Source of the DNA: an uncultured SAR86 cluster bacterium
GTDB lineage: Bacteria > Pseudomonadota > Gammaproteobacteria > Magnimaribacterales > D2472
Direction: 5' to 3'
Length of the DNA stretch: 64,000 bases
Assembly (NCBI GenBank): GCA_902608115.1
Contig: CACLMT010000002.1
Span: 31,767-95,766, forward strand
The translations under genes and the position numbers were made by a program. Positions 7,561 to 28,053 of the stretch are shown here, piece by piece (positions within the stretch are counted from its first letter, which is position 1; each line of letters starts with the position of its first letter). The notes beneath the pieces were generated by a model. That model saw only the letters and a list, made by a program, of their open reading frames with translations, had not been told where the DNA came from and ran no database searches.

Positions 7561-7580
7561 AGGGTTAATTCGCACCCCAG
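7561..7580 (-). repeat. Islet motif copy B (inverted relative to 5845-5864)
   Basis: AGGGTTAATTCGCACCCCAG. Confidence 0.8.
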
Positions 7581-7672
7581 CATCTTTCTAGCCACAAGCC
7601 AGAAAAACCCATGTCATGTCCGTTAATGAATCGGCTTATCGGCTAGGCGTTCGTTGTATTACAGCAGGGTGC

Positions 7673-8020
7673 TTATTTGCAATTCACTATAGATAAATAT
7701 TCTGAGGGCCTTTTGGTATTCAACCAAGAAATCCAACAAGAGTTTATTCCATCACCATTTTTATCCTTTGCAATAACATTCACTTTGAAGACTTTGTAAA
7801 GCTTGTTTTTATTGTCATAAACCTTAATTTCATCTCCAACAGTTATTGAAGTTTTGTTGGTTGAAACATCCCAGCTTACAGATGTTGTCAGGCCAAAAAA
7901 ATTTTTTTCAGTCAGTGTCATTGCAGAGCTTCCGCTCCAGTAAGCGCTATTAGAATATGTTTCAGCAAAAGCTCCAAAGCTTATAAAGACCATCAAAACT
8001 AAGGTAAGGGTGTTTTTCAT
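7673..8020 (-). CDS. Hypothetical secreted protein (start re-assigned to MKNTLTLVL)
   Basis: ATG at 8020 gives a clean signal peptide ending AFA-E and removes the overlap with the upstream ORF. Confidence 0.6.
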   Translation of the reverse strand: MKNTLTLVLMVFISFGAFAETYSNSAYWSGSSAMTLTEKNFFGLTTSVSWDVSTNKTSITVGDEIKVYDNKNKLYKVFKVNVIAKDKNGDGINSCWISWLNTKRPSEYLSIVNCK

Positions 8021-11484: not shown

Positions 11485-11610
11485 ACAATAATCCTTATTT
11501 CTTTTATCCTGATTTAATTAACTCTGTCTAGGTATATACCTTTGTTCAGTTAAAAAGGTTGCAACTTCATGTGGTATATTTATTTTACCATTTAACCTAG
11601 AGTTTTACGT

Positions 11611-12024
11611 ATGACTAATCCATTTCACCTAGCAATACCTGTCAGTGATTTAGATAAAGCAGCAGCATTCTATGAAAATGTAATAGGTTGTAAAAGGGGC
11701 AGGGAGGCCAAGCATTGGATTGACTTTGATTTATTTGGACATCAGCTTGTATGTCATTATGTAGAGACACCCAGCTCATATCATTCAAATCCAGTAGATG
11801 GTGATGATGTTCCAGTGCCACACTTTGGAGTCATACTTAATATCGATGAGTTTGATGTATTGGCAAAACGACTAATAGAGGCAAATCAATCTTTCATTAT
11901 TGAACCAAGAATTAGATTTAAAGGAAAGTCTGGTGAGCAGAGAACTATGTTTTTAAAAGACCCAAGCAATAATGCAATTGAATTTAAAGCTTTTGCTAAT
12001 TTAGATAATTTATTTAAATCCTAA
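11611..12024 (+). CDS. VOC/glyoxalase family protein
   Basis: PFHLAIPV, WIDFDLFGHQ, VPVPHFG, DPSNNAIEFKAF. Confidence 0.85.
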   Translation: MTNPFHLAIPVSDLDKAAAFYENVIGCKRGREAKHWIDFDLFGHQLVCHYVETPSSYHSNPVDGDDVPVPHFGVILNIDEFDVLAKRLIEANQSFIIEPRIRFKGKSGEQRTMFLKDPSNNAIEFKAFANLDNLFKS

Positions 12025-12507
12025 ACTTCTAGCAGCTATTGGGTTAGACATAACCCCTTTATCTATTTTTTGATAAAAGCTAGAGGTTTTTTTAAAAACA
12101 CTTTCTTTTATTAACCATTTCCCAGATTCTTTTATATAAATATCCTTATAAAAGCCAGTTAAATTTAGAGTGATTTTTTTGTTGGTATCTACTAAAAAAT
12201 AGCTTAATGACCAATGAGCGGATGCATTGTTTTTTGTAATTTTAATTATTGGATTTTTTCCAGAGTGGTGTTCAAGTAGATGGTCAAAACAGGAAAATAC
12301 TTTAAATTCATTAACCATTTTTTTTGCTGTATTAAATATTCCAAAATCTTCATAGTCAATATGAACAGCATTGTGACTAAAGCATTCAATCATTGATTGA
12401 GTATCCTTTGTATCACAGGCATCAAAGTAGCGATACTTAAGGTTTTTGATTGCTTCACAATCTTCTAAATGAGTTATTCGTGTGTTTATCGATTGAGATA
12501 AATTCAT
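12010..12507 (-). CDS. SnoaL-like/NTF2 family protein (BaiE/LinA-like)
   Basis: LEDCEAIKNLKYRY..ACD, HHSGKNP, GFYKD.Y...GKWLI. Confidence 0.75.
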   Translation of the reverse strand: MNLSQSINTRITHLEDCEAIKNLKYRYFDACDTKDTQSMIECFSHNAVHIDYEDFGIFNTAKKMVNEFKVFSCFDHLLEHHSGKNPIIKITKNNASAHWSLSYFLVDTNKKITLNLTGFYKDIYIKESGKWLIKESVFKKTSSFYQKIDKGVMSNPIAARSLGFK

Positions 12508-17143: not shown

Positions 17144-18145
17144 TTGAGTAGTATTTTTAAGCCTCAGCGACAATGCTTAGCAGTAGTTGTATTATTTTTT
17201 TCAATCACTCTAGTTTCTGAAACTTTTACTAATACCAACCATGTTCCTAATGACAAGAGTTTTGGAGATTTTTTGAAATGGACTTTAGATGGAAAGAATG
17301 ATCCTGAAAAAATACAAATTGAAACTTCAAACCAATGGCAGCTACTGACTTTCGAAGATACTAATTATGCAGTTTGGGTAGGGCATGCAACTTACCTTAT
17401 TAATAACGGTGACCTTAACATTCTGACAGATCCTATTTTTTCAGAACGTGCATCACCTTTTTCATGGCTAGGCCCAAAGAGAATGATACCTCCAGCAATT
17501 CCATTAAAAGATCTTCCAAAAATTGATGTGGTGGTTATTAGTCACAATCATTACGATCACTTTGATATACCATCTCTGAAGAAATTATATGAGCTGAATT
17601 CTGAAACAATTTTTTTAGTTCCTCAAGGAGATAAAAGACGGTTAAAGAGGGCTGGTATAACGTATGTGCATGAATTTTTATGGTGGGAAAATATTCAAAT
17701 TCAAGATACAACTTTTACCTTTACACCGGTACAGCATTGGTCAAAGAGAGGATTATATGATCGAAATAAAAGTCTTTGGGGTGGTTGGTTTATGCAAGCT
17801 AAGGACTTAAAACTTTATCATGCGGGTGATACAGGCTACTCGAATGATTTTGTAACTACTAGAGATCAGTTAGGATCTCCAGATTATTCTTTTATACCTA
17901 TAGGCGGGTATGATCCTAGATGGTTTATGAAACATGCGCATGTAAATCCTGAAGAGGCAGTACAAATTGCGATAGATTTAAAAAGCTCTTACTCATTTGG
18001 TATGCATTGGGGTACATTTATTTTAACTGATGAGCCAGTGACTGAACCTCCAAAGAGAATTGAGGTGACTTTAAAAGATCAAGGTTTTGAGACTAGTTTT
18101 TTTAGATCTCCAAAACCTGGTGAATTACTTAAATTAAGCAATTAA
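17144..18145 (+). CDS. MBL-fold metallo-hydrolase (NAPE-PLD/RomA-like); start uncertain
   Basis: WVGHAT, TDPIFS, SHNHYDH, AGDTGY, MHWGTF; in-frame TTG at 17144 avoids the overlap. Confidence 0.85.
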   Translation: MSSIFKPQRQCLAVVVLFFSITLVSETFTNTNHVPNDKSFGDFLKWTLDGKNDPEKIQIETSNQWQLLTFEDTNYAVWVGHATYLINNGDLNILTDPIFSERASPFSWLGPKRMIPPAIPLKDLPKIDVVVISHNHYDHFDIPSLKKLYELNSETIFLVPQGDKRRLKRAGITYVHEFLWWENIQIQDTTFTFTPVQHWSKRGLYDRNKSLWGGWFMQAKDLKLYHAGDTGYSNDFVTTRDQLGSPDYSFIPIGGYDPRWFMKHAHVNPEEAVQIAIDLKSSYSFGMHWGTFILTDEPVTEPPKRIEVTLKDQGFETSFFRSPKPGELLKLSN

Positions 18146-18278
18146 ACCAATACAATCTTTTTATGAATTAATTAGATATGTTGGTTGAAGTTTTGGAAAT
18201 GTGTTGCAAAGAGCCACTCAGAATTAAATTATTAAAGCCAGCCCATATTAATAGATTAAGAGAGTATGCTCTAGCTCT

Positions 18279-19400
18279 TTATTGAACCGTCCCAAAAGCG
18301 AGCTCTGTTACTTCAAATAATGCTGTATTTAAATCTGACATTATCTCACCACTTTCTGTTTGAGTTATTTCTAATTTTCTATTGATGCGGTCTAGTTCGT
18401 TTTGAGGAATGCTATCTAGATCGTCTCGATATAATAAGTATAAATCAGCTATATCTAGGTGAAGCTGTATGACATCAGTTGTATTATTTATATAACTTTT
18501 TGCAAGATATTCTATTGCAGAGATTTTTGGAGAGAAATGACTTATTGAATCATCAAGAGCAACAAGCTGATTCAAGGTTTCTATAAAAGATTTTAGATTT
18601 ATAAAAATCTCACGTTTTATTTGATTATATTCTTCATATTTAACTGTTACTCCTTGGTGAATCTTTGAAACAATATCTGGATTTAATTTTTCAGTACTTA
18701 AATGAAAAGCTTGAAGTCTTGTTGTGTCTGCAAGAAATTTTGCTCCATAAATTTCAATATCAATAATAATTTTAGATAAGTTAAAATCTGGCAAATATAG
18801 TTTATTTAATTCAAGGTTTTCTGCAATCAATAATACAAAGTCAGCACTCAGGAAGTATGATTTAGCTGAGAGTTGATCATATTGATAGTAATCTTGCTCG
18901 ATAATTATCTTTATTTGATTTTCAGATATTTCTGCAAGTTGTTTCATATGGTCATCAAGCTTCTGAATTAGCTGATAGCTTGCTTTATATAGCGGCATAT
19001 AAACTTTAATGCCTGAAGAAGATTTTAATTTTATGTTATTAAATTCTTTTTGAAATTTATTTTGTTCTCTATAAATTCTATCTTGTAGTATCTCAAGACT
19101 TTCAAACATCTGTTGTTCAGATATCTTGTCGCTATAAAAATCATTTGTAAGAAGATAATTAATTTCATACTGAAGAGTATTTTGGTAAGCAACAGCATCT
19201 ACTGCTTTTTGAAAAATTAATACAAAAGTCTGCATTTCTTTTCTTGATATTGGATTTTCCATTATCTCTCCAATTTCTTCTAAGGTTAGCTCTTTAATAT
19301 CAGCTTTAATTAGCTCTGAAAAAGGAATTAATAAAATTATAAACAGTGAAAAAGCAAGAGTTTTTTTAAAGATTTTGTTTTTTGATAGCATATATTGCAT
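18279..19400 (-). CDS. Hypothetical exported alpha-helical protein
   Basis: 373 aa, N-terminal signal/TM segment, amphipathic acidic helices; divergent from the caspase gene with a 29-bp gap. Confidence 0.6.
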   Translation of the reverse strand: MQYMLSKNKIFKKTLAFSLFIILLIPFSELIKADIKELTLEEIGEIMENPISRKEMQTFVLIFQKAVDAVAYQNTLQYEINYLLTNDFYSDKISEQQMFESLEILQDRIYREQNKFQKEFNNIKLKSSSGIKVYMPLYKASYQLIQKLDDHMKQLAEISENQIKIIIEQDYYQYDQLSAKSYFLSADFVLLIAENLELNKLYLPDFNLSKIIIDIEIYGAKFLADTTRLQAFHLSTEKLNPDIVSKIHQGVTVKYEEYNQIKREIFINLKSFIETLNQLVALDDSISHFSPKISAIEYLAKSYINNTTDVIQLHLDIADLYLLYRDDLDSIPQNELDRINRKLEITQTESGEIMSDLNTALFEVTELAFGTVQ

Positions 19401-19429
19401 AATTAATACTACTCTATTAATTGAAATAA

Positions 19430-21430
19430 ATGAAAAAGTATTCCTTTTTTATAGTTTTAAGTCTATTTTCAGTATGGGTATTCTCTAATGAGAATTATCA
19501 GTGTGATGCTGTTGATGATGACTTAACTGGGCTTGTTTGTATTTCATCTGATAAGAAATATTCAACGGTTTCAAAATTAACTCAACTAGGCTCAACCTAT
19601 AATGCCTCTATAACATTTCCTGATGATGGTGATACCTGGGAAGTTGAGGTCAATCAATCCAACATTAAAATTTCCATGAATGATGATGAATCATTTTTTG
19701 GCAAAATTAAAAATAAAAGAATTTTTGGCACCTTGGTTAGAAAAAACTTTTCAAGGACTGATGCTGAGCTTGTAGGATCTGGAATGACGGGTGAGGCAGA
19801 TATTTTCTATGATAATGGAGATACCTTTAAAGGAAGGATAAAAGATAATCTTCGAGAAGGATTGGGCGTATATACTTTTGCTTTGCTTGATGGACAAGAA
19901 AATCCAGAATTTACAGAGTGTATTTATAAAGAAGATGAATGCCAAACAGGAAAATATTACTTCGATACTGGAACAACATATCAAGGCGACTTTGAGGATG
20001 GGTTTTTCCATGGCGAGGGTGTTTACCGATATAATCATGGCGCGATCTATACAGGAACGTTTGCTTATGATTCCAGAAGAGGATATGGGGAATATTTTTA
20101 TGAAGAGGGGTCAAAACTATCGCACTACAAGGGATATTACATAGATAATAAACAACATGGCCCTGGTGAAACTATGTGGTCTGGAGATGGAATACCTGGT
20201 TACGGTGATCGTCTTATTAAATATCACGTTGGTCAATACAAAGATGGAGAAATGACTGGTCAAGGTGTTTTTTTAGATTTTGAAAAAAGAATTATTTATC
20301 AAGGAAATCTCCTGGAAGGTTCCAGGCATGGTGCAGGCACAACTTTTTTGCAAGATGAGGAGGGTAGGCTTTTTTCACATAGTGGTAACTATAAAGATGA
20401 TCTTCTTAACGGTTTTGGGAAAATACATTATTCAGATGGAGCAACATTTGAAGGCAATTATTCAGAAGGACAACGAAGTGGTCTTGGAGTTTTGATTGAT
20501 CCAATTATAAGCACAGTTAGTACAGGGATTTTTTCGAATGGCGAACTAAATGGCATGGGAAAGGAAGAGGTATTTAATGCAGATGGAAGTTCTGCATTTG
20601 TTTTAGAAATTAACTTTCTTAATGGAGAGAAGCATGGGCGTGGACTAGTTACTTTCAATGATGGTTCAACTTTTTATGCTAGATATATTGATGGTGAGTA
20701 TCAAGGGGAGCTGGAAGAATTACAGGATCCCCCAGTACCCATAAATGATAGATTAGCTTTAGTAATAGGTAATGATAATTATTTAAGCAGTCCCTTAAAT
20801 AATGCTGTTTCGGATTCTATTGGAATATCGGATCAACTTAAAAAGTCAGGATTTGAAGTGATTTATGTTTCCAATGCTACTTATGAATTATTTCAAAAGG
20901 CAATTAGCGAATTTAGAAATAGATTAGAATTAATGGGTCCAACAACAACTGCTCTTTTTTATTACGCTGGACATGCTGCTCAAGTTGATGGAATAAATTA
21001 TCTTAACCCTATTGATTCTGAGATATCTAGTAAATTTGAACTATATACAAAAGCTATAAATATGAATGATATTTTCTCCGTCGTTTCAGAACATGTTGAT
21101 AGGGTAAAAATTGTTATTTTAGACGCTTGTCGAAATAACCCATATCCTAGTTTTATCAGGTCAGCATCAACTGGATTAGCACAAATGACTGCTCCAGACG
21201 GAACAATTATTGGCTACTCCACCAGTCCAGGCAAAGTATCCCTAGATGGAGAAATAAACGGTTATGGAATTTATACTGGAAATTTAATAAGTGCTATGAA
21301 TGTTCCTGGGAGAACTATTGAAGAAGTTTTTAAGGAAACTACAAGAGCAGTTAAAACTTTAACAAATAATAAACAAGTTCCTTACACATCCACTACTTTA
21401 TCAGGTAATTTTTATTTTATAGAAGATTAA
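19430..21430 (+). CDS. Secreted MORN-repeat protein with C-terminal caspase-family (peptidase C14) domain
   Basis: Signal peptide; many Y.G.F..G..HG.G MORN repeats; ALVIGNDNY, YYAGHA (His) and ILDACRN (Cys) dyad intact. Confidence 0.9.
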   Translation: MKKYSFFIVLSLFSVWVFSNENYQCDAVDDDLTGLVCISSDKKYSTVSKLTQLGSTYNASITFPDDGDTWEVEVNQSNIKISMNDDESFFGKIKNKRIFGTLVRKNFSRTDAELVGSGMTGEADIFYDNGDTFKGRIKDNLREGLGVYTFALLDGQENPEFTECIYKEDECQTGKYYFDTGTTYQGDFEDGFFHGEGVYRYNHGAIYTGTFAYDSRRGYGEYFYEEGSKLSHYKGYYIDNKQHGPGETMWSGDGIPGYGDRLIKYHVGQYKDGEMTGQGVFLDFEKRIIYQGNLLEGSRHGAGTTFLQDEEGRLFSHSGNYKDDLLNGFGKIHYSDGATFEGNYSEGQRSGLGVLIDPIISTVSTGIFSNGELNGMGKEEVFNADGSSAFVLEINFLNGEKHGRGLVTFNDGSTFYARYIDGEYQGELEELQDPPVPINDRLALVIGNDNYLSSPLNNAVSDSIGISDQLKKSGFEVIYVSNATYELFQKAISEFRNRLELMGPTTTALFYYAGHAAQVDGINYLNPIDSEISSKFELYTKAINMNDIFSVVSEHVDRVKIVILDACRNNPYPSFIRSASTGLAQMTAPDGTIIGYSTSPGKVSLDGEINGYGIYTGNLISAMNVPGRTIEEVFKETTRAVKTLTNNKQVPYTSTTLSGNFYFIED

Positions 21431-21437
21431 TTTTCTT

Positions 21438-21466
21438 TGTAACAAAACTCTCTCTTGCTCGTAGTA
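21438..21466 (+). promoter_or_regulatory. ECF sigma-type promoter P1
   Basis: TGTAAC-N16-CGTAGTA. Confidence 0.7.
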
Positions 21467-21510
21467 TTTATATAAGGCAATTACGCTTTGTATGTAAAAA
21501 GGAAAATTCT

Positions 21511-21831
21511 ATGAAAAAACTACTTTTAACAACCATGATCGCTTTTGGATCAATGGGGGCTCAAGCAAGCTATAACTACTTAAACTCATACACCTATGGA
21601 AATAATACAAGTACCTACGGTCAAGTTGGTGGTAACAGTGTCAACTTATCAACCTCTAGATATGGAAATAATATATCTACCTATGGAAGTATTGGTAGCA
21701 GCTCTGTAAATATTTATAGCAACAGCTATGGCAACACTACATCCACATATGGCAATGTAGGATCTTCTAGAATTAATGGCCAAAGTTCTACTTACGGGAA
21801 TTCAACAAATTCTTGGTGGACTATAGACTAA
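21511..21831 (+). CDS. Secreted S/N/G/T/Y-rich protein with 22-aa repeats (amyloid-like or beta-repeat)
   Basis: AAGGA RBS; signal peptide ending AQA; YGN at residues 29, 51, 73 and 95. Confidence 0.75.
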   Translation: MKKLLLTTMIAFGSMGAQASYNYLNSYTYGNNTSTYGQVGGNSVNLSTSRYGNNISTYGSIGSSSVNIYSNSYGNTTSTYGNVGSSRINGQSSTYGNSTNSWWTID

Positions 21832-21840
21832 TTAATTTTT

Positions 21841-21874
21841 TATACATGCCCTTGATTACTCGAGGGTATGTATA
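21841..21874 (+). terminator. Hairpin after the repeat-protein gene (terminator or mRNA stabiliser)
   Basis: TATACATGCCCTTGA-TTAC-TCGAGGGTATGTATA, 15-bp stem with two G-U pairs. Confidence 0.6.
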
Positions 21875-21910
21875 TTTCAAATAGATAGATAAATATGCAA
21901 GAATACCTTA

Positions 21911-22384
21911 ATGACAAATTTCGAAAGTATGCTTTTTTCAGACGGTCTGAGGGTTAAGCTTATGAATATTGCCATGTCTAGAACTTTCAATCGATTCGAT
22001 GCTGAGGACCTTGTGCAAACCACGTACCTCAAAGCAATTGAGAAACAAGATCAGTTTTCTGGTGAAAAGATAGATCCCTGGATTGTTACTATCTTGAAAA
22101 ATACATTTATTGATTCAACACGCAAGAAAAAACCGGATCTTCCGGGTGATGATCTACCAGAACTGACAGAAGATGGCGATCAGGAAAACACCTTACTAGA
22201 GAGAGACCGTGATATGTGCTTTGAAAAACTTGATGAGGTAGAAAGGGATGTCATTGCCATGAAACAAACAATGAGTTATAAGGAAATTGCTGATTTTCTT
22301 CAAATAAAAGCAAGTTCAGTGCGAGTAAAGCTATTGCGAGCAAAAGAAAAATTTATGATTTGTATGGATTTTGATAATGACTGA
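21911..22384 (+). CDS. ECF (sigma-70 group 4) RNA polymerase sigma factor
   Basis: DAEDLVQTTYLKA (region 2), W...ILKN.FID..RK, SYKEIA...SVRVKLLRA (region 4). Confidence 0.92.
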   Translation: MTNFESMLFSDGLRVKLMNIAMSRTFNRFDAEDLVQTTYLKAIEKQDQFSGEKIDPWIVTILKNTFIDSTRKKKPDLPGDDLPELTEDGDQENTLLERDRDMCFEKLDEVERDVIAMKQTMSYKEIADFLQIKASSVRVKLLRAKEKFMICMDFDND

Positions 22385-23036
22385 TCAAGATAAAATTTTA
22401 ATCATGTCCTATTTGGATAATGAGCTTGATGCGAAAGAAATCTCTGAGATTGAATTATTAATTGCTAGCGATTCAGATGCTCAAGATTATCTCAATCAAC
22501 TTAAAATGACCAATAATGAGGTGGATGCGTTTTTTAACTCTGATGATATGAAGCTACTAGATGCTTCTATATCTGAATTTGTTGAAAGCTTTAAACCGAA
22601 ACAAGCAGCATCTTTTGTAAATTTTAGCAATGTTCTTGCAGGCTTCTTTACTCCCAAACAAGCTCTAAGCTACTCATTTACAGCTGCACTTTTTTTAGTA
22701 GTAGGTTTATTTTTTCAAGATCTTACCTATAAAGAAATATTATTTGATTTGAATGGTGATATTTATGAAAAACAAGTTTTTATTACAAGGGGCGTAAGTG
22801 TTAATGTTGGCCTCAAAGATGAAATACATGCAATGATCTATGAAATGGTTCAAAACAATTCTCCTGAAGGTAATTTAACCTATGGTTCGAGTGTTTATGC
22901 TATATTTCTTGAAGATAAAACCATTGAAACAGATTCTTTAAATTGTTATGCAGGCCAGTATTTTATTGCGGGAGAAAACCAAGAATTCATTTTCTGCGAA
23001 TCCCAGCAGGACACTTCTCTTATTTTTATTAATTAG
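22371..23036 (+). CDS. Putative membrane-bound anti-sigma factor
   Basis: Overlaps the sigma gene; N-terminal LIMSYLDNELD anti-sigma-domain motif, one TM helix, small extracytoplasmic domain with a Cys pair. Confidence 0.8.
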   Translation: MIMTDQDKILIMSYLDNELDAKEISEIELLIASDSDAQDYLNQLKMTNNEVDAFFNSDDMKLLDASISEFVESFKPKQAASFVNFSNVLAGFFTPKQALSYSFTAALFLVVGLFFQDLTYKEILFDLNGDIYEKQVFITRGVSVNVGLKDEIHAMIYEMVQNNSPEGNLTYGSSVYAIFLEDKTIETDSLNCYAGQYFIAGENQEFIFCESQQDTSLIFIN

Positions 23037-23152
23037 TTTTTCGTATTCACACCTCCTTACTTTTCAAGAGGCTTTACCTATAGCTGATAATCGTTACATT
23101 AATCATTTTGTTGTTTAAGGAGATACATTGCTTATAGCATTTTATAAACTTC

Positions 23153-23178
23153 TGTAACATTCATACTTAACAACCGTT
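23153..23178 (+). promoter_or_regulatory. ECF sigma-type promoter P2
   Basis: TGTAAC-N16-CGTT. Confidence 0.55.
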
Positions 23179-23214
23179 CAACTCATGTAAACAGAGGATT
23201 GCAACGAAAGTTTA

Positions 23215-23243
23215 AGTAACAAACTCACTCTTTAATCGTAGTA
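23215..23243 (+). promoter_or_regulatory. ECF sigma-type promoter P3
   Basis: AGTAAC-N16-CGTAGTA, followed by GGAG RBS and ATG at 23267. Confidence 0.7.
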
Positions 23244-23266
23244 AGCCTATACATGGAGTATTAAAT

Positions 23267-24835
23267 ATGAAATTTTTAACAAAACAATCTTCTTCACACA
23301 TGCTATATGTATTTGCATGGTCTTTAGAAATAATCTTATGCCTATGTGGTATTTTAATTGCATTTACTTTGTCATACCTTGGTATGGTCAGCTTAGAAGG
23401 TGATCAACAATTTTCCCAAGCCCAGTATTTAACTATGGGGATTGCTTTTTTACCGCTTTTTGCTATTGCCTTAACTGAGCTATTAAAGATTCCAGCAGTA
23501 ACAGGATTTGTCTATGCAAAGTCTTTAAAAACAAAGTTAATAGCAGGATTTTTTCTCTTAGCGGTGTGTATTCTCACTTTTGAAACTATGTTTTCTGGTC
23601 AGGAGCAAGCTTTTGCCTTAAGAACAGAGCAAATCAAAGTAGAGAAGGAGGATGAAAATCGAATAGTTGAAAAAATGCAACTTATTGATAGTCAAGTTGA
23701 GTCAATCTCAGGATTATCGCTTGCACAAATTAGAAAGCACTCAAGCAATGGACTAAAGATCCAATTACAACCACTCGAAACTCAAATTACGGAACTGCGA
23801 GTTCGTGAAAATGAATTAAAGATCTCAATGAATCCAGCAGAAATTGAAGAACAAAAAAGGCAAATTAATAATCTTGAAAAAAACAAAGATAGATTGTTTG
23901 TTCAATATCAACAAGAATTAAACAGTTTGAATTCTGCGCTTAATCAACTGAATAAAAATGAGCAAAATGAATTAAAAGACACTATCATCTTCAAAAATTC
24001 TATTAGAAAAAAATATTCAGATCAAAGAGCTGGGTTAAAAGCAGAAAAAGCAGCTCTAAAATTGGCTCTTGATACAAAAGTTAAATCAATAGATACAAAA
24101 ATATCTACTGCTGATAATCTAATTGCAGATTACAGTAAACCAAACCCTAAAGTGATAGCTGATCTTAATATCGTTAGTGCACAGATATTAGCACTACAAC
24201 AAGAAATCAAATTAAGAATTGATAAAGCCAATAAAGAAGTAGATGTAACCCTTGCTAATACATCTTCTAATAAACTAAGAATCAATCAATTGCAATTGTC
24301 CAAAGTAGAGTTGGGCGCAGAATTAAATTCTGTTAGAGATAGTATTGCTTCACGTTCAAATAAATCAAACATTCATAGGTTGGCTGCCTTGTATTATGGT
24401 ATAGATAATCCGGCTGACCTCTCACAGGAAGATATTTCTATTTTCGCATTGATATTCATGGCTAGCATTGCATTTGTGGTCGCTGTAGCAGGCCCCCTTA
24501 TTGCTTTTATATCTCTTAGAAATTACGTTGAGGGAGATGCACCTAAGCCTAATAAAACAGCTTTGGCAATTAGAAAGGCTGCTGTAGCTTTAAGAAGAAG
24601 ACTGCTTAAGCCTAAAGTTATTACCAAAATTAATGAGGTTGAAGTTGAAAAAGAAATTATTAAAGAAATACCAGTTGAAAAGGTTGTTTATGAAAAGGTA
24701 GAGGTGCCAACACCATTTGAGGTTACTAAATTTGTCGGTGTTCCTGTACCCACTGATCCTAAAGATCTTCCTTCGCCGCCAGAAATAGACGTCGAGAAGG
24801 TCAATAACTTATTAGATCAAGGGGAAGCAGCATGA
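23267..24835 (+). CDS. Membrane protein with long coiled coil and VEK-rich C-terminal tail
   Basis: 3 N-terminal TM helices, ~250-aa heptad-rich region, a further TM helix, then EVEVEKEIIKEIPVEKVVYEKVEVP. Confidence 0.75.
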   Translation: MKFLTKQSSSHMLYVFAWSLEIILCLCGILIAFTLSYLGMVSLEGDQQFSQAQYLTMGIAFLPLFAIALTELLKIPAVTGFVYAKSLKTKLIAGFFLLAVCILTFETMFSGQEQAFALRTEQIKVEKEDENRIVEKMQLIDSQVESISGLSLAQIRKHSSNGLKIQLQPLETQITELRVRENELKISMNPAEIEEQKRQINNLEKNKDRLFVQYQQELNSLNSALNQLNKNEQNELKDTIIFKNSIRKKYSDQRAGLKAEKAALKLALDTKVKSIDTKISTADNLIADYSKPNPKVIADLNIVSAQILALQQEIKLRIDKANKEVDVTLANTSSNKLRINQLQLSKVELGAELNSVRDSIASRSNKSNIHRLAALYYGIDNPADLSQEDISIFALIFMASIAFVVAVAGPLIAFISLRNYVEGDAPKPNKTALAIRKAAVALRRRLLKPKVITKINEVEVEKEIIKEIPVEKVVYEKVEVPTPFEVTKFVGVPVPTDPKDLPSPPEIDVEKVNNLLDQGEAA

Positions 24836-25734
24836 ATGCGGCAATTTATGATTCAAGTGCCGTTGATGTATACATCCTAGAGCAAATTAAAAGGGAGCAA
24901 GAAATCACCAGAACTCGATCAATAGAAAACTTTGCTAAAGAGGCTCCTTTTTTACTATTACTCTGGGGTGGTCGGCTATTAGCAATTGGTTTATTAGTCC
25001 TTTGTATTGGATATGCAATTAAATTAGCTCTCAGCTGGCATCATATTGATGAAACTATTAATTCTTACCCATCTCCTTCTGTTCATACCGGATATCAAAC
25101 AGATGCAATCAGCAAAGAGGATACTGTATTTGATGTGGAAGCAATCCTTTCAGGAACTAACGGAAATAATCAAAGTAGGGGATCAATATCAAATCCAGCG
25201 GAGATTACCAAAGACAGTCCGTTGCCAATAACATCAGTTGAACAAGGTAACGTTCAAGATAGTAATGGGCCTGCTTCAGATGTTATTGAGTCTGGTATTG
25301 ATAGTTCTTTTTCTGGGCCATCATTGGATCATGATAATAGTCAAAGCTCATCGAATACAGAGTCACAACAATCAATTCAAAGCAATCCAGAATTGAAAAC
25401 TACTCAAGAGCATGAAATGGATAATAAAAATAATATTGCACCACCAGAAGAAGATACTATTAGACATTATACGGTTTTTGATCGAATTCCCTTTGACGGT
25501 AAGTCTATTAAAACAGTAATAGTTGGAAGGAAGTTTAATGAACCCGGTGGGCCGCTGATAGAAAAATATTGTTATTTCAAAGTTCCAAAGTCTAAGGATA
25601 TTTACGATTCAATTTATTTCATAAGAGATACTTCTAAAGGTAGGCACGAACTCCCAATTACACAGAATTTATCAAAATTTCTAAAAATAGAGTATCAAGA
25701 ATTATTAGATGCCAAATCAAAATGCAAAATTTAA
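24832..25734 (+). CDS. Hypothetical single-pass membrane protein with low-complexity linker
   Basis: ATGA overlap with the upstream gene; TM segment, S/Q/N-rich linker, C-terminal domain with 2 Cys. Confidence 0.65.
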   Translation: MNAAIYDSSAVDVYILEQIKREQEITRTRSIENFAKEAPFLLLLWGGRLLAIGLLVLCIGYAIKLALSWHHIDETINSYPSPSVHTGYQTDAISKEDTVFDVEAILSGTNGNNQSRGSISNPAEITKDSPLPITSVEQGNVQDSNGPASDVIESGIDSSFSGPSLDHDNSQSSSNTESQQSIQSNPELKTTQEHEMDNKNNIAPPEEDTIRHYTVFDRIPFDGKSIKTVIVGRKFNEPGGPLIEKYCYFKVPKSKDIYDSIYFIRDTSKGRHELPITQNLSKFLKIEYQELLDAKSKCKI

Positions 25735-26375
25735 AAAAATATTTTTTACTTAGCTTTGTATTTCTTCTTGCAGTTCAAGGCTTTGCTGATGGTACGCAGA
25801 TTTATAATGCTAAGGTTGATGGAGTAGTTTTAATTCTTGGAGAGGGTGGTTTAGCCTCGGGTGCAATTATTAGCAAAGAAGGTCATATTCTTACAAATTG
25901 GCATGCTGTTTATGGGAATGAAAATATGAATATTTTTATTCTAGGAGTGGGTGAGGTTGAAGATAATACCTATCAAGCTCAAGTTTTAAAACTGAGCCAA
26001 TCACAAGATTTAGCACTATTAAAAATAATAAACCCACCCAGAAATCTTAATGTCCTTAGATTAAGCAAAGTTATTCCTCAAATTGGATCAGCAGTTCATG
26101 CTATTGGTCATCCTCAGGGTGAGATCTGGACATATGGCCACGGTTATATCAGTCAACACAGAGATAACTATGAATGGAGTTACAAAGATTCTGATGAAAT
26201 TTTCACTGCTGATGTATACCAGATGGATGCTCCTATCTATGAAGGTAATTCAGGAGGACCTTTATTGAACAAATTTGGAAATATTGTCGGCATTAATTCA
26301 TTTGGCTATCAGAATAAACAGGGTTTGAATTATGCAGTCAGCGTCAAAGAGATTATTAAATTTTTAGCAAATTAA
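25722..26375 (+). CDS. Secreted trypsin-like serine protease (S1, no PDZ domain)
   Basis: Signal peptide; LTNWHA (His), DLALL (Asp), GNSGGPL (Ser). Confidence 0.9.
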   Translation: MQNLKKYFLLSFVFLLAVQGFADGTQIYNAKVDGVVLILGEGGLASGAIISKEGHILTNWHAVYGNENMNIFILGVGEVEDNTYQAQVLKLSQSQDLALLKIINPPRNLNVLRLSKVIPQIGSAVHAIGHPQGEIWTYGHGYISQHRDNYEWSYKDSDEIFTADVYQMDAPIYEGNSGGPLLNKFGNIVGINSFGYQNKQGLNYAVSVKEIIKFLAN

Positions 26376-26384
26376 ATAATTATT

Positions 26385-26413
26385 TGTAACAAACTTATTT
26401 ATCAATCGTAATA
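26385..26413 (+). promoter_or_regulatory. ECF sigma-type promoter P4
   Basis: TGTAAC-N16-CGTAATA. Confidence 0.7.
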
Positions 26414-26416
26414 ATT

Positions 26417-26541
26417 AGGTAGTTGGTTAGAAATTAACCTCCCACTAATCGACTCAAGGGCTGGTGAAATTCCAGATAAATAGCGAGCTAGATTTATAAC
26501 ACTATTTCTCCTACCTGTTATAGCTCGCTGTTTCGGTGGGA
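26417..26541 (+). other. Structured 5' leader or candidate ncRNA downstream of P4
   Basis: Nested stems TCCCAC/GTGGGA, AAATAGCGAGCTA/TAGCTCGCTGTTT, CTGG/CCAG, plus GGTTA/TAACC. Confidence 0.5.
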
Positions 26542-26567
26542 TAAAAAAATTTAAACAAAGAAATTAC

Positions 26568-27530
26568 ATGTCAAAAATACCATTAAACGAAACCAGCACA
26601 GAATTAAAAAATTACCTGCTTGCAAAGTCATACTTGGAATATATTCAATGGCAGCTAGCTGACTTAGACTTATTTACGTCTTTTGTTCCAATTGTAGAAC
26701 GAGCTGCAAAATATGGTCAATTGCAAGAACGATTGATTAATTTAGACGAATCAATTTCTAACGCCTATCAATTTAGAGATTTTACAAGCGAGATATCTAA
26801 AGATGCCTTTGATTTGTTGATTGCTCACACAATAAATTTTTACAATTACATCAACAATCAAGTAAAAAATTGTTTGAATGCCAGTAAAAAGTCTGATGAT
26901 ATTAATGCTGCTGACATACACTTTTTTACAACTTGTATAAAAAAATGGGATCTTTATAAAACTCTTTTACCTAGCGATCATTATGAGATTGGCTTTTTAG
27001 ATGCAGCTATTTTTTCAACTCGTGCTTTTTTAGAGGGATTCAAGGACGAGTCTTGTTACAAAATTGGCGAAGAGTTATCCATGAAATCAATGGATGAATT
27101 AGAAAAGATATATATTTCTATCACTCAAAACACTTATCTAGTTGATGAATATGCTTCACTGAAAATATTGAACAAGGATACCAGCGATGATCAAGAAGAT
27201 TTTAATAAGTTTCTTGGTCTGCATTTAGTCTCTATAGCGTGGAGTTATCGCCAGAGTCATTTATCTGCAAAAATATTTAAAAGTTTAATTGTTGATGCAG
27301 AACAATTATCTGAGCAAGAGGTTGATGTTTTGATAGGGTTTTGTGAATCGATAAGCACCGATTACATGGAGGCTTCAGCTGCTAAAACACAAATATTTCT
27401 CATCATTATTAAAAAGATATTTGATGTAGCGGGGTGTGAACTTCGAGAAGTTGATCTATTTTATCCTCCTAATGAGCCTGAAGAGATTTTTAATTCCAAA
27501 GAGTTTAAATATCTCAGAGATCTTCTATGA
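26568..27530 (+). CDS. Hypothetical cytoplasmic alpha-helical protein
   Basis: 320-aa ORF, acidic, no signal peptide, no recognised motif. Confidence 0.6.
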   Translation: MSKIPLNETSTELKNYLLAKSYLEYIQWQLADLDLFTSFVPIVERAAKYGQLQERLINLDESISNAYQFRDFTSEISKDAFDLLIAHTINFYNYINNQVKNCLNASKKSDDINAADIHFFTTCIKKWDLYKTLLPSDHYEIGFLDAAIFSTRAFLEGFKDESCYKIGEELSMKSMDELEKIYISITQNTYLVDEYASLKILNKDTSDDQEDFNKFLGLHLVSIAWSYRQSHLSAKIFKSLIVDAEQLSEQEVDVLIGFCESISTDYMEASAAKTQIFLIIIKKIFDVAGCELREVDLFYPPNEPEEIFNSKEFKYLRDLL

Positions 27531-27628
27531 ACAAAATTGTAAGAGTTAAATGCTTACCAAGTGCATACAATCATTCTTATAATATAATTATTAATCCTTG
27601 AAGAATTTATAAATATCCATTTCAAAGT

Positions 27629-27997
27629 TTAGTTTATATCCAATGCGTACTCTCTAAGAATTTTGAGAGGAACTAATTCTAAGGTTTTGATATGCGTCTT
27701 AGTGAGATAAATTTTTGGAGCGCAATTTGCTTCAAAGGCTTCCACCCATCTTGGAGCACACAAACACCAATCATCTCCTGCTTTAAGACCTGGAAAACCA
27801 TATTCTGTCACGGGTGTTGAAAGATCATTACCCTTGTATTTAGAAAAAGCTAAAAATTCCTCAGTCATGTTAACGCAAACTGTGTGTATGCCATGATCGG
27901 ATTCATAAGTTTCGCAATAACCACTGCGGGTAAAACCTGTGATTGGATTTTCACAGCAAACTGTCATTACTTCTCCAAAAACATTTAACTGATCCAT
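27629..27997 (-). CDS. DUF2237 family protein
   Basis: NVFGE...C...P.TGF.R.GYC, GNDLSTP, GD.WCLCA.RW. Confidence 0.9.
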   Translation of the reverse strand: MDQLNVFGEVMTVCCENPITGFTRSGYCETYESDHGIHTVCVNMTEEFLAFSKYKGNDLSTPVTEYGFPGLKAGDDWCLCAPRWVEAFEANCAPKIYLTKTHIKTLELVPLKILREYALDIN

Positions 27998-28053
27998 TAA
28001 AAGATTATACGATTTATTTACTTAATGAGATAAATTAACTAGGTCCTAGAGAT

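What the first reader, a model, noticed from the sequence alone, without database searches (positions are those of the whole stretch)
18279..27530. Candidate undescribed protease-triggered ECF signalling system: MORN-caspase, amyloid-like repeat protein, sigma/anti-sigma, coiled-coil membrane protein and trypsin
Seen: a ~9 kb block inserted among metabolic genes. It encodes a secreted MORN-repeat caspase with intact His/Cys dyad, a small secreted 22-aa-repeat protein, an overlapping ECF sigma/TM anti-sigma pair, a coupled three-gene operon (coiled-coil membrane protein, linker protein, PDZ-less trypsin with intact triad) and two orphans. Four copies of one ECF promoter motif lie in its intergenic gaps. 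Known: ECF anti-sigmas are released by regulated proteolysis, and caspase-superfamily domains are coupled to ECF sigmas in Myxococcus DdvA/DdvS and type III-E CRISPR Csx29/Csx30/CASP-sigma. Inference: an envelope-threat sensor in which the MORN scaffold binds a ligand, the caspase cuts the anti-sigma, and the freed sigma induces the repeat protein, the trypsin operon and the 26568 orphan, possibly for phage or predator defence or envelope repair. I do not recognise this gene combination as a named system.
Basis: partly seen in the sequence, partly recalled or inferred. Interest (0 to 1): 0.88.

Follow-up and report, generated by a model that had tools for sequence, protein, structure and literature searches.

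The report
Protease-linked ECF sigma island, CHAT-less variant
A 9.5 kb inserted island in a small marine bacterial genome carries an alternative sigma factor switch, its own promoters and several secreted proteases; related islands show that it belongs to an undescribed but conserved module and has lost that module's usual protease partner.

Summary
All nine ORFs, the domains, the catalytic residues, the gene overlaps and the four promoter-like motifs are present. The block is an insertion: 5 of 5 same-genus genomes join the two flanking genes directly.

The genes co-occur elsewhere. Three other genomes of 266 in the order and 38 marine metagenome contigs carry the order repeat protein, ECF sigma, anti-sigma, secreted CHAT protease, coiled-coil membrane protein, linker, trypsin. 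The motif GTAACA-N15-CGT[AT] lies upstream of the repeat/sigma operon and the coiled-coil operon.

The usual caspase-fold partner is CHAT, not the MORN-caspase. It sits between anti-sigma and the coiled-coil gene in 26 of 29 contigs and co-varies with the anti-sigma periplasmic domain. The window lacks about 3.07 kb, the CHAT gene, relative to its closest relative L043. MORN-caspases are accessory, seen in 6 of 38 contigs.

I read it as a split relative of the Myxococcus DdvS/DdvA TPR-CHAT anti-sigma system. This copy is a CHAT-less variant in which the MORN-caspase may be the input (complex prediction 0.52, weak). Function is inferred. The "amyloid-like" label is unsupported.

The parts
18279..19400 (-). 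orfA: 373-aa protein with a hydrophobic N-terminus and no family hit. Part of the inserted block but not of the conserved module.
   Evidence: ORF. No Pfam, NCBIfam, PADLOC or PHROG hit. A homologue (42% identity) in the same position occurs only in L043, 1 of 38 contigs.
19430..21430 (+). Secreted MORN-repeat Peptidase_C14 (caspase-fold) protease of 666 aa. It has no ECF motif upstream.
   Evidence: Pfam. H515/C567 and the N-terminal Cys pair C25/C37 are invariant in 7 of 7 sequences. All 7 N-termini printed begin with a hydrophobic stretch that I read as a signal peptide; no predictor was run. The closest solved relatives of the protease domain are MALT1 paracaspase chains, E 1.3e-9. The window has no motif match outside the four listed sites.
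21439..21463 (+). P1: ECF-type promoter motif in front of the repeat-protein gene, and probably of the rep-sigma-anti-sigma operon.
   Evidence: Exact match. The same motif lies 48-50 bp before the repeat-protein gene in 17 of the 19 rep-assigned matches; 19 of 66 motif matches in the 38 contigs sit there.
21511..21831 (+). Small secreted 22-residue-repeat protein (rep). It has about four repeats and a conserved C-terminal YGNST..W.ID.
   Evidence: Repeats read. Family alignment of 15 sequences. AF2 model has mean pLDDT 81, with residues 21-106 near 90, and shows 8 beta strands. No PDB fold match at E <= 0.001.
21911..22384 (+). Minimal ECF sigma factor of 157 aa, regions 2 and 4 only.
   Evidence: PDB relatives are generic ECF sigmas.
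22371..23036 (+). Candidate anti-sigma of 221 aa. It has an N-terminal DKILI.AYLD.E helix region, one TM segment (97-115) and a 106-aa periplasmic domain with two invariant Cys (C192, C209).
   Evidence: The 14-bp overlap with the sigma gene is. TM segment. Alignment of 25 sequences. The N-domain tracks sigma (rho 0.73) and the C-domain tracks CHAT (rho 0.43). No Pfam or PDB sequence match.
23042..23126 (.). Junction where the CHAT gene of sister islands is missing. About 85 bp stand in place of L043 5531-8601.
   Evidence: blastn collinearity: window 20219-23041 aligns to L043 2702-5530, and window 23127-27524 to L043 8602-12988. tblastn found no CHAT remnant here: the only CHAT-query match in the window is a 27-residue chance-level hit at 44018-44098, E 0.42. 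A 521-nt contig of public run X13 matches window 22748-23265 with 0 mismatches, bridging the junction.
23154..23178 (+). P2: variant ECF motif (GTAACATT-N13-CGTT), the upstream member of a tandem pair.
   Evidence: Tandem motifs before the coiled-coil gene also occur in G031, L044, L068 and L075.
23216..23240 (+). P3: ECF motif 26 bp before the coiled-coil gene.
   Evidence: A motif sits in this position in 32 of 36 contigs that include the region upstream of the gene, or 33 counting L051, where my ORF call starts too early.
23267..24835 (+). Coiled-coil membrane protein (cc) of 522 aa. Four hydrophobic segments (15-33, 55-73, 91-109, 390-408) flank a helical hairpin of about 250 residues. The C-terminal tail is charged and rich in V, E, K and P.
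   Evidence: Hydropathy. AF2 model has pLDDT 78, with the hairpin apex near residue 240. Foldseek against PDB gives only generic coiled coils, none at E <= 0.001. No Pfam family.
24832..25734 (+). Linker protein of 300 aa. One TM segment (41-59), a low-complexity insert specific to this island type, and a conserved C-terminal domain.
   Evidence: It is found with the trypsin gene in 14 of 14 contigs that extend at least 1.4 kb past the coiled-coil gene. No family hit and no usable Atlas hit.
25722..26375 (+). Secreted HtrA/DegS-like trypsin-fold protease of 217 aa, without a PDZ domain.
   Evidence: Pfam. NCBIfam DegP/HtrA/DegS models match the protease domain only and fall below their cut-offs. 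The triad is invariant in 20 of 20.
26386..26410 (+). P4: ECF motif directly after the trypsin stop codon, 157 bp before orfZ.
   Evidence: At the same place L043, L042 and L044 carry GTAACT instead of GTAACA.
26460..26534 (+). Conserved structured leader RNA upstream of orfZ.
   Evidence: RNAalifold on 4 sequences gives 23 pairs, 2 of them with compensatory changes, and an invariant loop. No Rfam match.
26568..27530 (+). orfZ: 320-aa protein of no known family, a variable cargo gene.
   Evidence: Homologues (46-70% identity) occur in L042, L043 and L044 only.

Best explanation
The block is one copy of a mobile, lineage-restricted envelope-surveillance module of marine Gammaproteobacteria.

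Core: an ECF sigma factor is held at the inner membrane by a one-pass anti-sigma.

Input (inferred): a secreted caspase-fold protease, normally a 1000-1100-aa LysM- or TPR-CHAT protein encoded right after the anti-sigma. It recognises the anti-sigma's disulfide-containing periplasmic domain. On an envelope or peptidoglycan cue it clips that domain. RseP-type intramembrane cleavage then frees sigma. This would be a two-gene version of the fused Myxococcus DdvA TPR-CHAT anti-sigma.

Output (shown at the level of conserved promoters):
- sigma's own operon, led by a small secreted beta-hairpin-repeat protein;
- a coiled-coil membrane protein / linker / PDZ-less trypsin operon, whose products I predict to face the periplasm;
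- variable cargo, orfZ in this copy.

The window is a natural variant that lacks the CHAT gene and keeps an accessory secreted MORN-caspase. That caspase probably serves as a substitute or parallel input.
For: Conservation (shown):
- The same gene order is found in G031, G222 and G173 and in 38 metagenome contigs.
- CHAT lies between anti-sigma and cc in 26 of 29 contigs that cover the interval. It abuts cc in 7 more contigs that do not reach the anti-sigma gene.
- Linker and trypsin follow cc in 14 of 14 contigs with enough sequence.
- The repeat protein lies upstream of sigma in 18 of 22 by script, 19 counting L066.

Regulon (shown):
- GTAACA-N15-CGT[AT] has 66 matches in 282 kb of contigs, 64 of them on the module's strand.
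- 35 are before cc and 19 before the repeat-protein gene.
- All 14 matches in the window, L009, L017 and L018 lie upstream of module or cargo genes.
- 7 of 9 matches in the whole genome lie at the two ECF loci.

Coupling of protease and anti-sigma:
- The genes are adjacent or overlapping.
- Similarity of the anti-sigma C-domain correlates with CHAT similarity (rho 0.43; 0 of 2000 permutations reach it). It does not correlate with sigma (0.07) or cc (0.10). The N-domain tracks sigma (0.73). This used 18 of 42 loci; the others lacked a full-length member of one family.
- Fusion precedent: DdvA (passages of PMC11506125).

Proteases look active and exported: CHAT His and Cys are kept in 33 of 33 and caspase H/C in 7 of 7. 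The N-termini printed (4 CHATs; 7 caspases) begin with a hydrophobic stretch that I read as a signal peptide; no predictor was run.

Cell-wall modules on the sensors: LysM on the CHATs of G222, L043 and L058; PG_binding_1 on an extra trypsin in G173; PDZ on the L078 caspase.

An RseP-like M50 protease is present in the genome.

For the window variant:
- Both CHAT-less loci with upstream sequence (the window and L078) have a MORN-caspase directly upstream.
- The anti-sigma C-domain is 84-86% identical to L042 and L043, which are 82% identical to each other. So there is no sign of decay.
- All ORFs and motifs are intact.
- Complex prediction of the caspase with the anti-sigma C-domain gave 'weak support'. 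The score was 0.52 (runs 0.43, 0.53, 0.52) and the best of 3 controls was 0.00. The runs share at least 86% of contacts and partner pLDDT is at least 72.
- Calibration: the mark was reached by 58 of 80 solved complexes and 2 of 110 mismatched pairs. At 0.60 or below it was reached by only 7 of those 80 and by both mismatches that passed.
Against: - No biochemical or expression evidence exists. No run on record as RNA holds the stretch.
- The anti-sigma assignment rests on context, topology and co-variation only. There is no Pfam or PDB sequence match, and the N-terminal 60 residues printed contain no His or Cys, so there is no zinc motif.
- Co-variation of the anti-sigma C-domain with CHAT could come from joint recombination of adjacent DNA, without any contact between the proteins.
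- The CHAT proteins show no sequence match to solved DdvA. Only the LysM part hits PDB.
- In L042, L043 and L044 the MORN-caspase coexists with CHAT, so it is not simply a replacement.
- In G055 a 44%-identical MORN-caspase has no other module gene on the 14.5 kb fetched. That contig ends 2.2 kb after the gene, the genome is 72% complete, and no cc match was found in it.
- The complex score is in the band the tool calls more often wrong than right unless the guess was likely beforehand.
- The trypsin, which is DegS-like, could equally be the site-1 protease.
- What the output proteins do is unknown.
Confidence: 0.5

Rival explanations
1. In this organism the MORN-caspase is the dedicated sensor and site-1 protease of the anti-sigma, and the system is complete as it stands.
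For: - The caspase is exported, has an intact dyad, and has no ECF motif upstream, as expected of an input.
- The CHAT-less loci (the window and L078) carry a MORN-caspase next to the sigma operon, and the L078 protein also has a PDZ domain.
- Complex prediction gave weak support: score 0.52 against a best control of 0.00. The mark was reached by 58 of 80 solved complexes and 2 of 110 mismatches, but at 0.60 or below by only 7 of the 80 and by both mismatches. The runs agree in at least 86% of contacts and partner pLDDT is at least 72.
- The anti-sigma C-domain is well conserved.
Against: - The closest islands (L042, L043, L044) have both the caspase and a LysM-CHAT next to an 76-81% identical anti-sigma.
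- CHAT, not the caspase, co-varies with and adjoins the anti-sigma.
- The caspase is found in only 6 of 38 contigs, and in varying positions.
- A MORN-caspase ortholog in G055 has no other module gene on the 14.5 kb fetched; the contig ends 2.2 kb past it.
Confidence: 0.3
2. This copy is a crippled or rewired remnant. Deletion of the cognate CHAT left sigma either locked off or constitutively on, and the MORN-caspase is an unrelated accessory passenger of the island.
For: - A clean 3.07 kb absence covers exactly the CHAT gene relative to L043.
- The left and right halves of the island show different relatedness to L042, L043 and L044, which suggests recombination at that slot.
- The larger island is also broken up. 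The second sigma/anti-sigma pair that follows orfZ in L042 and L043 sits on another contig here.
- In G173 the cc gene is interrupted by a TAG codon, so decay of module copies does occur.
Against: - Every remaining ORF, catalytic residue and promoter motif is intact.
- The anti-sigma periplasmic domain is not diverging faster than in CHAT-bearing relatives.
- CHAT-less arrangements recur in distinct backgrounds: 3 of 29 contigs (L045, L070, L078) plus the window.
- The junction is seen in an independent public run.
Confidence: 0.25
3. The proteases are outputs, not inputs. The signal reaches the anti-sigma by another route, for example the DegS-like trypsin with the coiled-coil and linker proteins acting as sensor and site-1 protease. 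CHAT, caspase and trypsin would then act as periplasmic effectors, as in abortive infection or attack on an invader.
For: - The protease domain of the trypsin is HtrA/DegS-like.
- In G173 and G222 CHAT lies in the sigma-driven operon.
- Distribution is sporadic and island-like, with toxin-like DUF4258 cargo under the same motif in G031 and G222.
- From memory, not from a call: caspase, CHAT and trypsin domains are common effectors in bacterial conflict systems.
Against: - The MORN-caspase, and the CHATs encoded on the opposite strand (G031, L048, L051, L059, L066, L068, L075, L076), have no motif in front.
- CHAT co-varies with the anti-sigma C-domain rather than with the output genes.
- PADLOC recognises no defence system here.
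Confidence: 0.2
4. An ordinary housekeeping envelope-stress sigma, like sigma-E with RseA and DegS.
For: It has an ECF sigma, a membrane anti-sigma and an HtrA-like protease, and RseP is present in the genome.
Against: - A strong cc match, and with it the module, was found in only 4 of 266 genomes of the order, including this one.
- It is absent at this site in 5 of 5 congeners.
- It lies in an inserted block.
- The sensor half is hypervariable.
Confidence: 0.05

Closest known systems
Myxococcus xanthus DdvS/DdvA (ECF sigma with a transmembrane anti-sigma carrying a periplasmic TPR-CHAT domain). I read the abstract and passages of PMC11506125.
   Same: An ECF sigma is held by a one-pass anti-sigma, and the periplasmic side is associated with a CHAT-type caspase-fold protease that keeps its His-Cys dyad. 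The proposed mechanism is CHAT cleavage near the membrane followed by RseP. Both occur in an accessory island.
   Different: - Here the anti-sigma (about 220 aa) and the CHAT protein (1000-1100 aa, with its own hydrophobic, signal-like N-terminus) are separate genes. The window has no CHAT at all, only a MORN-Peptidase_C14.
- There is no zinc (CHCC) motif.
- There is no detectable sequence similarity of sigma, anti-sigma or CHAT to solved DdvS/DdvA chains.
- The predicted regulon is envelope proteins, not CBASS or CRISPR.
- The paper's own survey found fused DdvA-like proteins only in Myxococcota and one Comamonas. Its table S7 could not be read.
Type III-E CRISPR craspase (Cas7-11, Csx29 TPR-CHAT, Csx30, an ECF-like sigma). 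I saw only the search listing and abstract start of PMC10028731 and of bioRxiv 2022.08.17.504292.
   Same: A CHAT protease acts on a sigma-regulating partner protein.
   Different: Craspase is cytoplasmic and RNA-guided. None of the 9 block proteins matched a Cas model in PADLOC. The proteases here begin with a hydrophobic stretch that I read as a signal peptide.
E. coli sigma-E / RseA / DegS / RseP (textbook knowledge, recalled).
   Same: ECF sigma, membrane anti-sigma, a periplasmic trypsin-fold protease, and an M50 site-2 protease in the genome.
   Different: The trypsin lacks the PDZ domain and is a predicted target of the sigma. The module is accessory. Caspase-fold proteases are added.
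ECF54 group context: carboxypeptidase, subtilase and CHAT genes near the sigma, with no anti-sigma (one passage of the review PMC8999054).
   Same: A CHAT-domain protein is conserved next to an ECF sigma, and proteolytic control is proposed.
   Different: ECF54 is described as lacking an anti-sigma, whereas here a conserved anti-sigma candidate is present. Group assignment could not be tested because no ECF-group HMMs were available.
EACC2-caspase neighbourhoods with an ECF sigma and a DUF1822 TPR protein (passages of PMC8195603).
   Same: A Peptidase_C14-type caspase is linked by neighbourhood to an ECF sigma.
   Different: The NCBIfam EACC1-type caspase model scores 34 bits against a cut-off of 140. 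No EACC or DUF1822 hits were found. The caspase here is exported and carries MORN repeats.

Membership tests
ECF (group 4) sigma-70 factors | Regions 2 and 4 only; matches the sigma70-ECF model above its cut-off | tested here: met
   Sigma70_r2 8e-12 and Sigma70_r4_2 1.3e-8 in a 157-aa protein. TIGR02937 scores 71.3 bits against a cut-off of 42.9.
ECF (group 4) sigma-70 factors | Autoregulated promoter with an AAC-type -35 and a CGT-type -10 (hallmark recalled from the ECF literature) | tested here: met
   GTAACA-N15-CGT[AT] lies before the rep/sigma operon in the window and G173, and before sigma in G031 and G222. It lies before the repeat-protein gene at 19 sites in the contigs.
Membrane anti-sigma factors (class I ASD / ZAS) | Encoded next to and co-transcribed with the sigma; single TM segment; N-terminal sigma-binding domain | tested here: inconclusive
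   There is a 14-bp overlap with the sigma gene and one TM segment at 97-115. The N-domain co-varies with sigma, rho 0.73. But there is no Pfam hit at E <= 0.1 and no PDB hit with the single sequence or a 25-sequence profile.
Membrane anti-sigma factors (class I ASD / ZAS) | H-x3-C-x2-C zinc motif (ZAS subclass) | tested here: not met
   Residues 1-60 contain no His or Cys (sequence; alignment).
DdvA-type TPR-CHAT anti-sigma | Anti-sigma domain, TM segment and periplasmic TPR-CHAT in one polypeptide | tested here: not met
   The anti-sigma is 221 aa. In relatives CHAT is a separate gene with its own hydrophobic, signal-like N-terminus. In the window it is absent.
Peptidase C14 (caspase / metacaspase / paracaspase) | Caspase fold with a catalytic His-Cys dyad | tested here: met
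   PF00656 E 6.5e-31. H515 (YAGHA) and C567 (DACR) are invariant in 7 of 7.
HtrA/DegS (S1C) proteases | Trypsin-fold domain with a His-Asp-Ser triad | tested here: met
   Trypsin_2 E 5.8e-24. H61/D96/S177 are kept in 20 of 20.
HtrA/DegS (S1C) proteases | One or two C-terminal PDZ domains | tested here: not met
   The protein is 217 aa with no PDZ hit. All NCBIfam HtrA/DegS models fall far below their cut-offs, for example TIGR02038 at 66 bits against 423.
Curli / functional amyloid (CsgA-like) | Curlin repeat family match or a beta-solenoid fold like CsgA | tested here: not met
   No Pfam or NCBIfam hit. The AF2 model is an 8-strand beta meander with no PDB match at E <= 0.001 and no curli chain among the 49 rows printed.
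Known anti-phage defence systems (PADLOC-DB v2) | Hits to system-specific models for the component proteins | tested here: not met
   Only generic domain hits: caspase 4.8e-7, and the trypsin domain of RT-Protease, HamA and LmuA models. The other 7 proteins have none.
ECF54 (ECF group with CHAT / subtilase / carboxypeptidase context) | Match to the ECF54 group HMM; no anti-sigma | not testable with these tools
   ECF-group HMMs are not in the libraries. Only one review passage was seen.

The most novel reading that the evidence does not exclude
The module is a periplasmic innate-immunity circuit. A hypervariable pair, made of a secreted caspase-fold protease (CHAT or MORN-caspase, with LysM, TPR, PDZ or MORN sensor modules) and the matching anti-sigma ectodomain, acts as a pattern-recognition receptor for envelope breach by phage, predatory bacteria or cell-wall-targeting effectors. 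Proteolytic release of the sigma then deploys a dedicated effector set: a periplasm-spanning coiled-coil protein, a tethered trypsin and an abundant beta-hairpin-repeat protein. This would be a caspase-to-transcription cascade in some of the smallest free-living marine genomes.
Probability: 0.25. Interest if true: 0.85.

Novelty: new variant of a known kind. Interest (0 to 1): 0.62.

Why it matters
Only one anti-sigma with a CHAT domain, DdvA, has been characterised, and its activation by autoproteolysis is still a proposal. This module has the two halves as separate genes. It also comes in natural variants: CHAT only, CHAT plus MORN-caspase, caspase only, and CHATs with LysM or TPR heads. Its promoter set is sharply defined.

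That makes the question "does a caspase-fold protease gate an ECF sigma?" directly testable by reconstitution with a P3 reporter. It also assigns a context to several protein families that have no annotation:
- the coiled-coil family, with 1005 representative clusters;
- the linker;
- the beta-hairpin-repeat protein.

All of this occurs in abundant, uncultured, genome-streamlined marine bacteria. This assembly matches only four sigma-70-type genes.

Tried and rejected
The 185,579-species collection was therefore never scanned. I used the genome search (order, 266 genomes; phylum sample, 401) and the metagenome scan instead.
- Rfam: no match in 18000-28000.
- PHROGs: no hit for 6 proteins.
- ESM Atlas: cc matches only unnamed clusters, the nearest named one being DUF4407 at 0.77, a lead only. 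The linker had no usable hit.
- Foldseek against PDB: only generic coiled coils for the cc model, and nothing for the repeat-protein model at E <= 0.001.
- PDB sequence searches found nothing for the anti-sigma, as a single sequence or as a profile. For the L043 CHAT only LysM matched.
- Expression: no RNA holder is listed. The only 'RNA?' run, X13, is a guess and holds two short contigs.
- The consensus terminator scan found no more sites than shuffles gave, so I make no terminator claim between the repeat-protein gene and sigma.
- The wider cc-like family (G001, G497, G605) showed no sigma, linker or trypsin nearby. No module protein, cc included, matched the stretch fetched for G178. The module is therefore not a property of that wider family. 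The G497 contig ends about 0.6 kb after the gene.
- A deletion remnant of CHAT in the window was sought by tblastn and not found.
- ECF-group (ECF Hub) assignment was not possible.
- Supplements of papers were closed. Table S7 of PMC11506125 and the ECF classification supplements may list related CHAT contexts that I could not see.

Full report
**What is in the window**

Pfam finds the following:
- MORN repeats plus Peptidase_C14 in the 666-aa protein;
- sigma-70 regions 2 and 4 in the 157-aa protein;
- Trypsin_2 in the 217-aa protein, without a PDZ domain.

The other six proteins have no significant hit in Pfam (nothing above a curated cut-off), and none in NCBIfam or PHROGs. PADLOC gives only generic caspase and trypsin domain hits.

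The sigma gene overlaps the next gene by 14 bp. The cc, linker and trypsin genes overlap by 4 and 13 bp. Caspase H515/C567 and trypsin H61/D96/S177 are present and invariant in relatives, 7 of 7 and 20 of 20.

The block is an insertion. In 5 of 5 same-genus genomes searched, the MBL-fold gene on the left flank and the DUF2237 gene on the right flank lie about 22 bp apart (flank identities).

**The promoter motif**

GTAACAAA-N13-CGTA occurs exactly three times in the whole 1.25 Mb assembly, all inside the block: 21439, 23216 and 26386. A fourth copy with the same spacing, GTAACATT-N13-CGTT, lies at 23154.

With the degenerate form GTAACA-N15-CGT[AT] the genome has 9 matches. Four are here, three are at a second ECF locus on contig C13, and two are elsewhere. 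Spacers of 11-19 other than 15 give 0-3 matches.

**Co-occurrence**

A search of 266 genomes of the same order with the coiled-coil (cc) protein found strong matches in G000, G031, G222 and G173. Two further matches, G001 and G178, were weak. Their neighbourhoods are:
- G222: 121-aa TM protein, sigma, anti-sigma, CHAT (1076 aa, with an N-terminal LysM), cc, linker, trypsin.
- G173: repeat protein, sigma, anti-sigma, CHAT (1106 aa), cc (interrupted by a TAG), linker, trypsin, and a PG_binding_1-trypsin protein.
- G031: sigma and anti-sigma, a CHAT on the other strand, cc, linker, trypsin, and a second CHAT nearby.

A metagenome scan returned 38 contigs. Annotated against the module proteins, they show the same order. 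By script:
- CHAT lies between anti-sigma and cc in 26 of the 29 contigs that cover that interval. It is missing in L045, L070 and L078.
- CHAT abuts cc in 7 further contigs that do not reach the anti-sigma gene.
- Linker and trypsin follow cc in 14 of 14 contigs with at least 1.4 kb of sequence after it.
- The repeat protein precedes sigma in 18 of 22 contigs. L066 also has one that my ORF call overlapped.

The motif has 66 matches in the 282 kb of contigs, 64 of them on the module's strand. Thirty-five are before cc, 19 before the repeat-protein gene, 1 before the 121-aa gene, 6 before other ORFs and 5 unassigned. Two of the unassigned (L044 5124 and L051 4556) are artefacts of my ORF starts. 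A motif is present before cc in 32 of 36 contigs that include that region, or 33 counting L051.

In G031 and G222 the motif also precedes DUF4258 gene pairs. In G173 it precedes a four-gene operon. So the regulon is a constant core plus variable cargo.

**The twist: CHAT is the usual partner and is missing here**

The module's regular caspase-fold protease is CHAT, not the MORN-caspase. The window is collinear with its closest relative L043, which carries:
- orfA at 42% identity and the caspase at 51%;
- the repeat protein at 89%, sigma at 82% and anti-sigma at 81%;
- cc at 78%, the linker at 63%, the trypsin at 75% and orfZ at 70%.

The exception is L043 5531-8601, the LysM-CHAT gene. About 85 bp stand in its place at 23042-23126. 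tblastn finds no CHAT remnant.

The junction is not an assembly artefact of this record alone. A 521-nt contig of public run X13 matches 22748-23265 without a mismatch. It may, however, come from a related sample.

MORN-C14 caspases occur in 6 of 38 contigs:
- upstream of the repeat-protein gene in L042, L043 and L044, together with CHAT;
- downstream of the trypsin gene in L065 and L066, together with CHAT;
- upstream of sigma in L078, which has no CHAT and whose caspase also carries a PDZ domain.

One order genome, G055, has a 44%-identical MORN-caspase with no other module gene on the 14.5 kb of its contig that I fetched; the contig ends 2.2 kb after the gene.

**Evidence that the protease talks to the anti-sigma**

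All 33 CHATs keep the His and Cys. The N-termini printed (4 CHATs, 7 caspases) begin with a hydrophobic stretch that I read as a signal peptide; no predictor was run.

The anti-sigma family (25 sequences aligned) has three parts:
- a conserved N-terminal segment (DKILI.AYLD.E);
- one TM segment;
- a variable ectodomain of about 100 residues with two invariant cysteines.

I compared 18 loci that have full-length sigma, anti-sigma, CHAT and cc. The other 24 of 42 were dropped, including the window (no CHAT) and G173 (split cc). Results:
- Ectodomain similarity correlates with CHAT similarity (Spearman 0.43; 0 of 2000 permutations reach it).
- It does not correlate with sigma (0.07; 476 of 2000) or cc (0.10; 241 of 2000).
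- The N-domain tracks sigma (0.73) and cc (0.70).

This fits a co-adapted sensor cassette. Joint recombination of adjacent DNA would give the same pattern, and the loci are related, so it is not proof of contact.

The fusion of exactly these parts in DdvA is the independent precedent. DdvA is an anti-sigma with a TM segment and a periplasmic TPR-CHAT domain. Its proposed mechanism is CHAT autoproteolysis followed by RseP. I read the abstract and passages of PMC11506125. An M50 RseP-like gene is present in this genome.

**The window variant**

After loss of CHAT the anti-sigma ectodomain is still 84-86% identical to those of L042 and L043, which are 82% identical to each other. All ORFs and motifs are intact.

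A complex prediction of the mature caspase (residues 21-666, 7-row alignment) with the ectodomain (residues 116-221, 25-row alignment) returned 'weak support':
- The median score was 0.52 (runs 0.43, 0.53, 0.52). The best of three controls was 0.00.
- At least 86% of contacts are shared between runs, and partner pLDDT is at least 72.
- The tool's calibration: the mark is reached by 58 of 80 solved complexes and 2 of 110 mismatched pairs. At 0.60 or below it is reached by only 7 of the 80 and by both passing mismatches.

I take this as a modest rise in the odds that the MORN-caspase can engage this anti-sigma, not as a demonstration.

**The output proteins**

*cc.* It has four hydrophobic segments and a confident helical hairpin of about 250 residues. 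By the positive-inside rule, which is my inference, the hairpin would lie in the periplasm. Foldseek finds only generic coiled coils. A word-index search found 52 close relatives, all unannotated and marine. A profile search found 1005 representative clusters at E <= 0.001 and 332 at E <= 1e-30, mostly 560-620 aa. There was no Pfam family above its curated cut-off in the cc-like part of 10 sampled (one, P0162, carries an N-terminal Peptidase_S78 domain), and no name beyond 'hypothetical protein' in 10 looked up. Three members of that wider family, in G001, G497 and G605, lie without sigma, linker or trypsin.

*Linker.* It has one TM segment and a conserved C-terminal domain.

*Repeat protein.* It is predicted with high confidence as eight beta strands in hairpins. 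It has no PDB match and no curlin signature. I call it a beta-hairpin-repeat protein rather than amyloid-like.

Every module product except sigma and orfZ is predicted to be exported or to have a periplasmic domain. Sensor-side proteins carry LysM, PG_binding_1, PDZ or MORN modules. This points to the cell wall or periplasm as the compartment being surveyed.

**Distribution and literature**

A strong cc match was found in 4 of 266 genomes of the order, including this one. In a sample of 401 genomes of the phylum, 3 (including G000) had a cc-like gene, and neither of the other two showed sigma, linker or trypsin nearby. The scan of all GTDB species failed, so the true range is unknown.

Four full-text searches were run. 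They found:
- DdvA;
- the craspase papers;
- a review passage on ECF54 with CHAT, subtilase and carboxypeptidase context but no anti-sigma;
- the EACC2-caspase/ECF neighbourhoods of PMC8195603.

None describes a separate secreted CHAT or MORN-caspase together with an anti-sigma and a cc-linker-trypsin operon. Supplements were closed, so this is 'not found in these searches', not 'not in print'.

**Verdict**

The best reading is a split, DdvA-like, protease-gated ECF module with a defined regulon. This copy has lost the cognate CHAT and retains an accessory MORN-caspase that may substitute. My confidence by step:
- About 0.9 that this is a real conserved sigma regulon module.
- About 0.5 that a caspase-fold protease gates the anti-sigma.
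- About 0.3-0.35 that the MORN-caspase does so here.

Whether the biological role is defence or envelope repair is open. Novelty: a new variant of a known kind. Interest: 0.62.

Noticed in passing
G000 contig C13, locus L085 1616-8415: A second ECF sigma (4185-4745) and anti-sigma (4742-5365). They are followed by a secreted protein with what I read as Sel1-like repeats (no family search was run on it), a 225-aa protein and another small secreted repeat protein (7541-7867, with IGN..F..DGS repeats). Three copies of the same promoter motif lie in this locus. The sigma2/anti-sigma2 pair is 75-86% identical to the pair that directly follows orfZ in L042 and L043. In sister genomes the two modules therefore form one larger island, which is split in this assembly.
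   Followed up: partly
window 26460-26534: A conserved structured leader lies between P4 and orfZ. It is a long hairpin with 2 compensatory pairs among 4 sequences and an invariant loop containing CUCC. There is no Rfam match.
   Followed up: partly
window 27629-27997 and L043 58-490: DUF2237 lies to the right of the island and on the minus strand in the window. In L043 it lies to the left, and in 5 congeners it is co-directional with the MBL gene. A rearrangement accompanies the island.
   Followed up: no
L018 (G173) 10759-12325: The cc gene of G173 is interrupted by one TAG codon, giving 240-aa and 301-aa pieces. It is either a decaying copy or a sequencing error.
   Followed up: no
L009 14658-15356 and L017 8795-9651: DUF4258 genes with a downstream partner sit divergently from the sigma operon, each behind its own copy of the ECF motif. 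This is a toxin-antitoxin-like cargo under sigma control.
   Followed up: no
L042 13101-13360 and L044 13101-13355: An insertion of about 230 bp with a short ORF lies between the trypsin gene and the orfZ leader. It is preceded by a GTAACT-N15-CGTT near-motif.
   Followed up: no
proteins P0053-P0198: The cc protein belongs to a large unannotated family, with 1005 representative clusters at E <= 0.001. Members are typically 560-620 aa and reach at least Rhodospirillales. One member is fused to a Caudovirus prohead protease domain (P0162).
   Followed up: partly
G000 whole genome: Only four sigma-70-type matches were found in the 78%-complete assembly: two ORFs of 601 and 289 aa that I take from their size alone to be RpoD- and RpoH-like, this ECF sigma, and the C13 ECF, which scores below the cut-off. 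So the two island sigmas are the only ECF-type sigmas detected.
   Followed up: no
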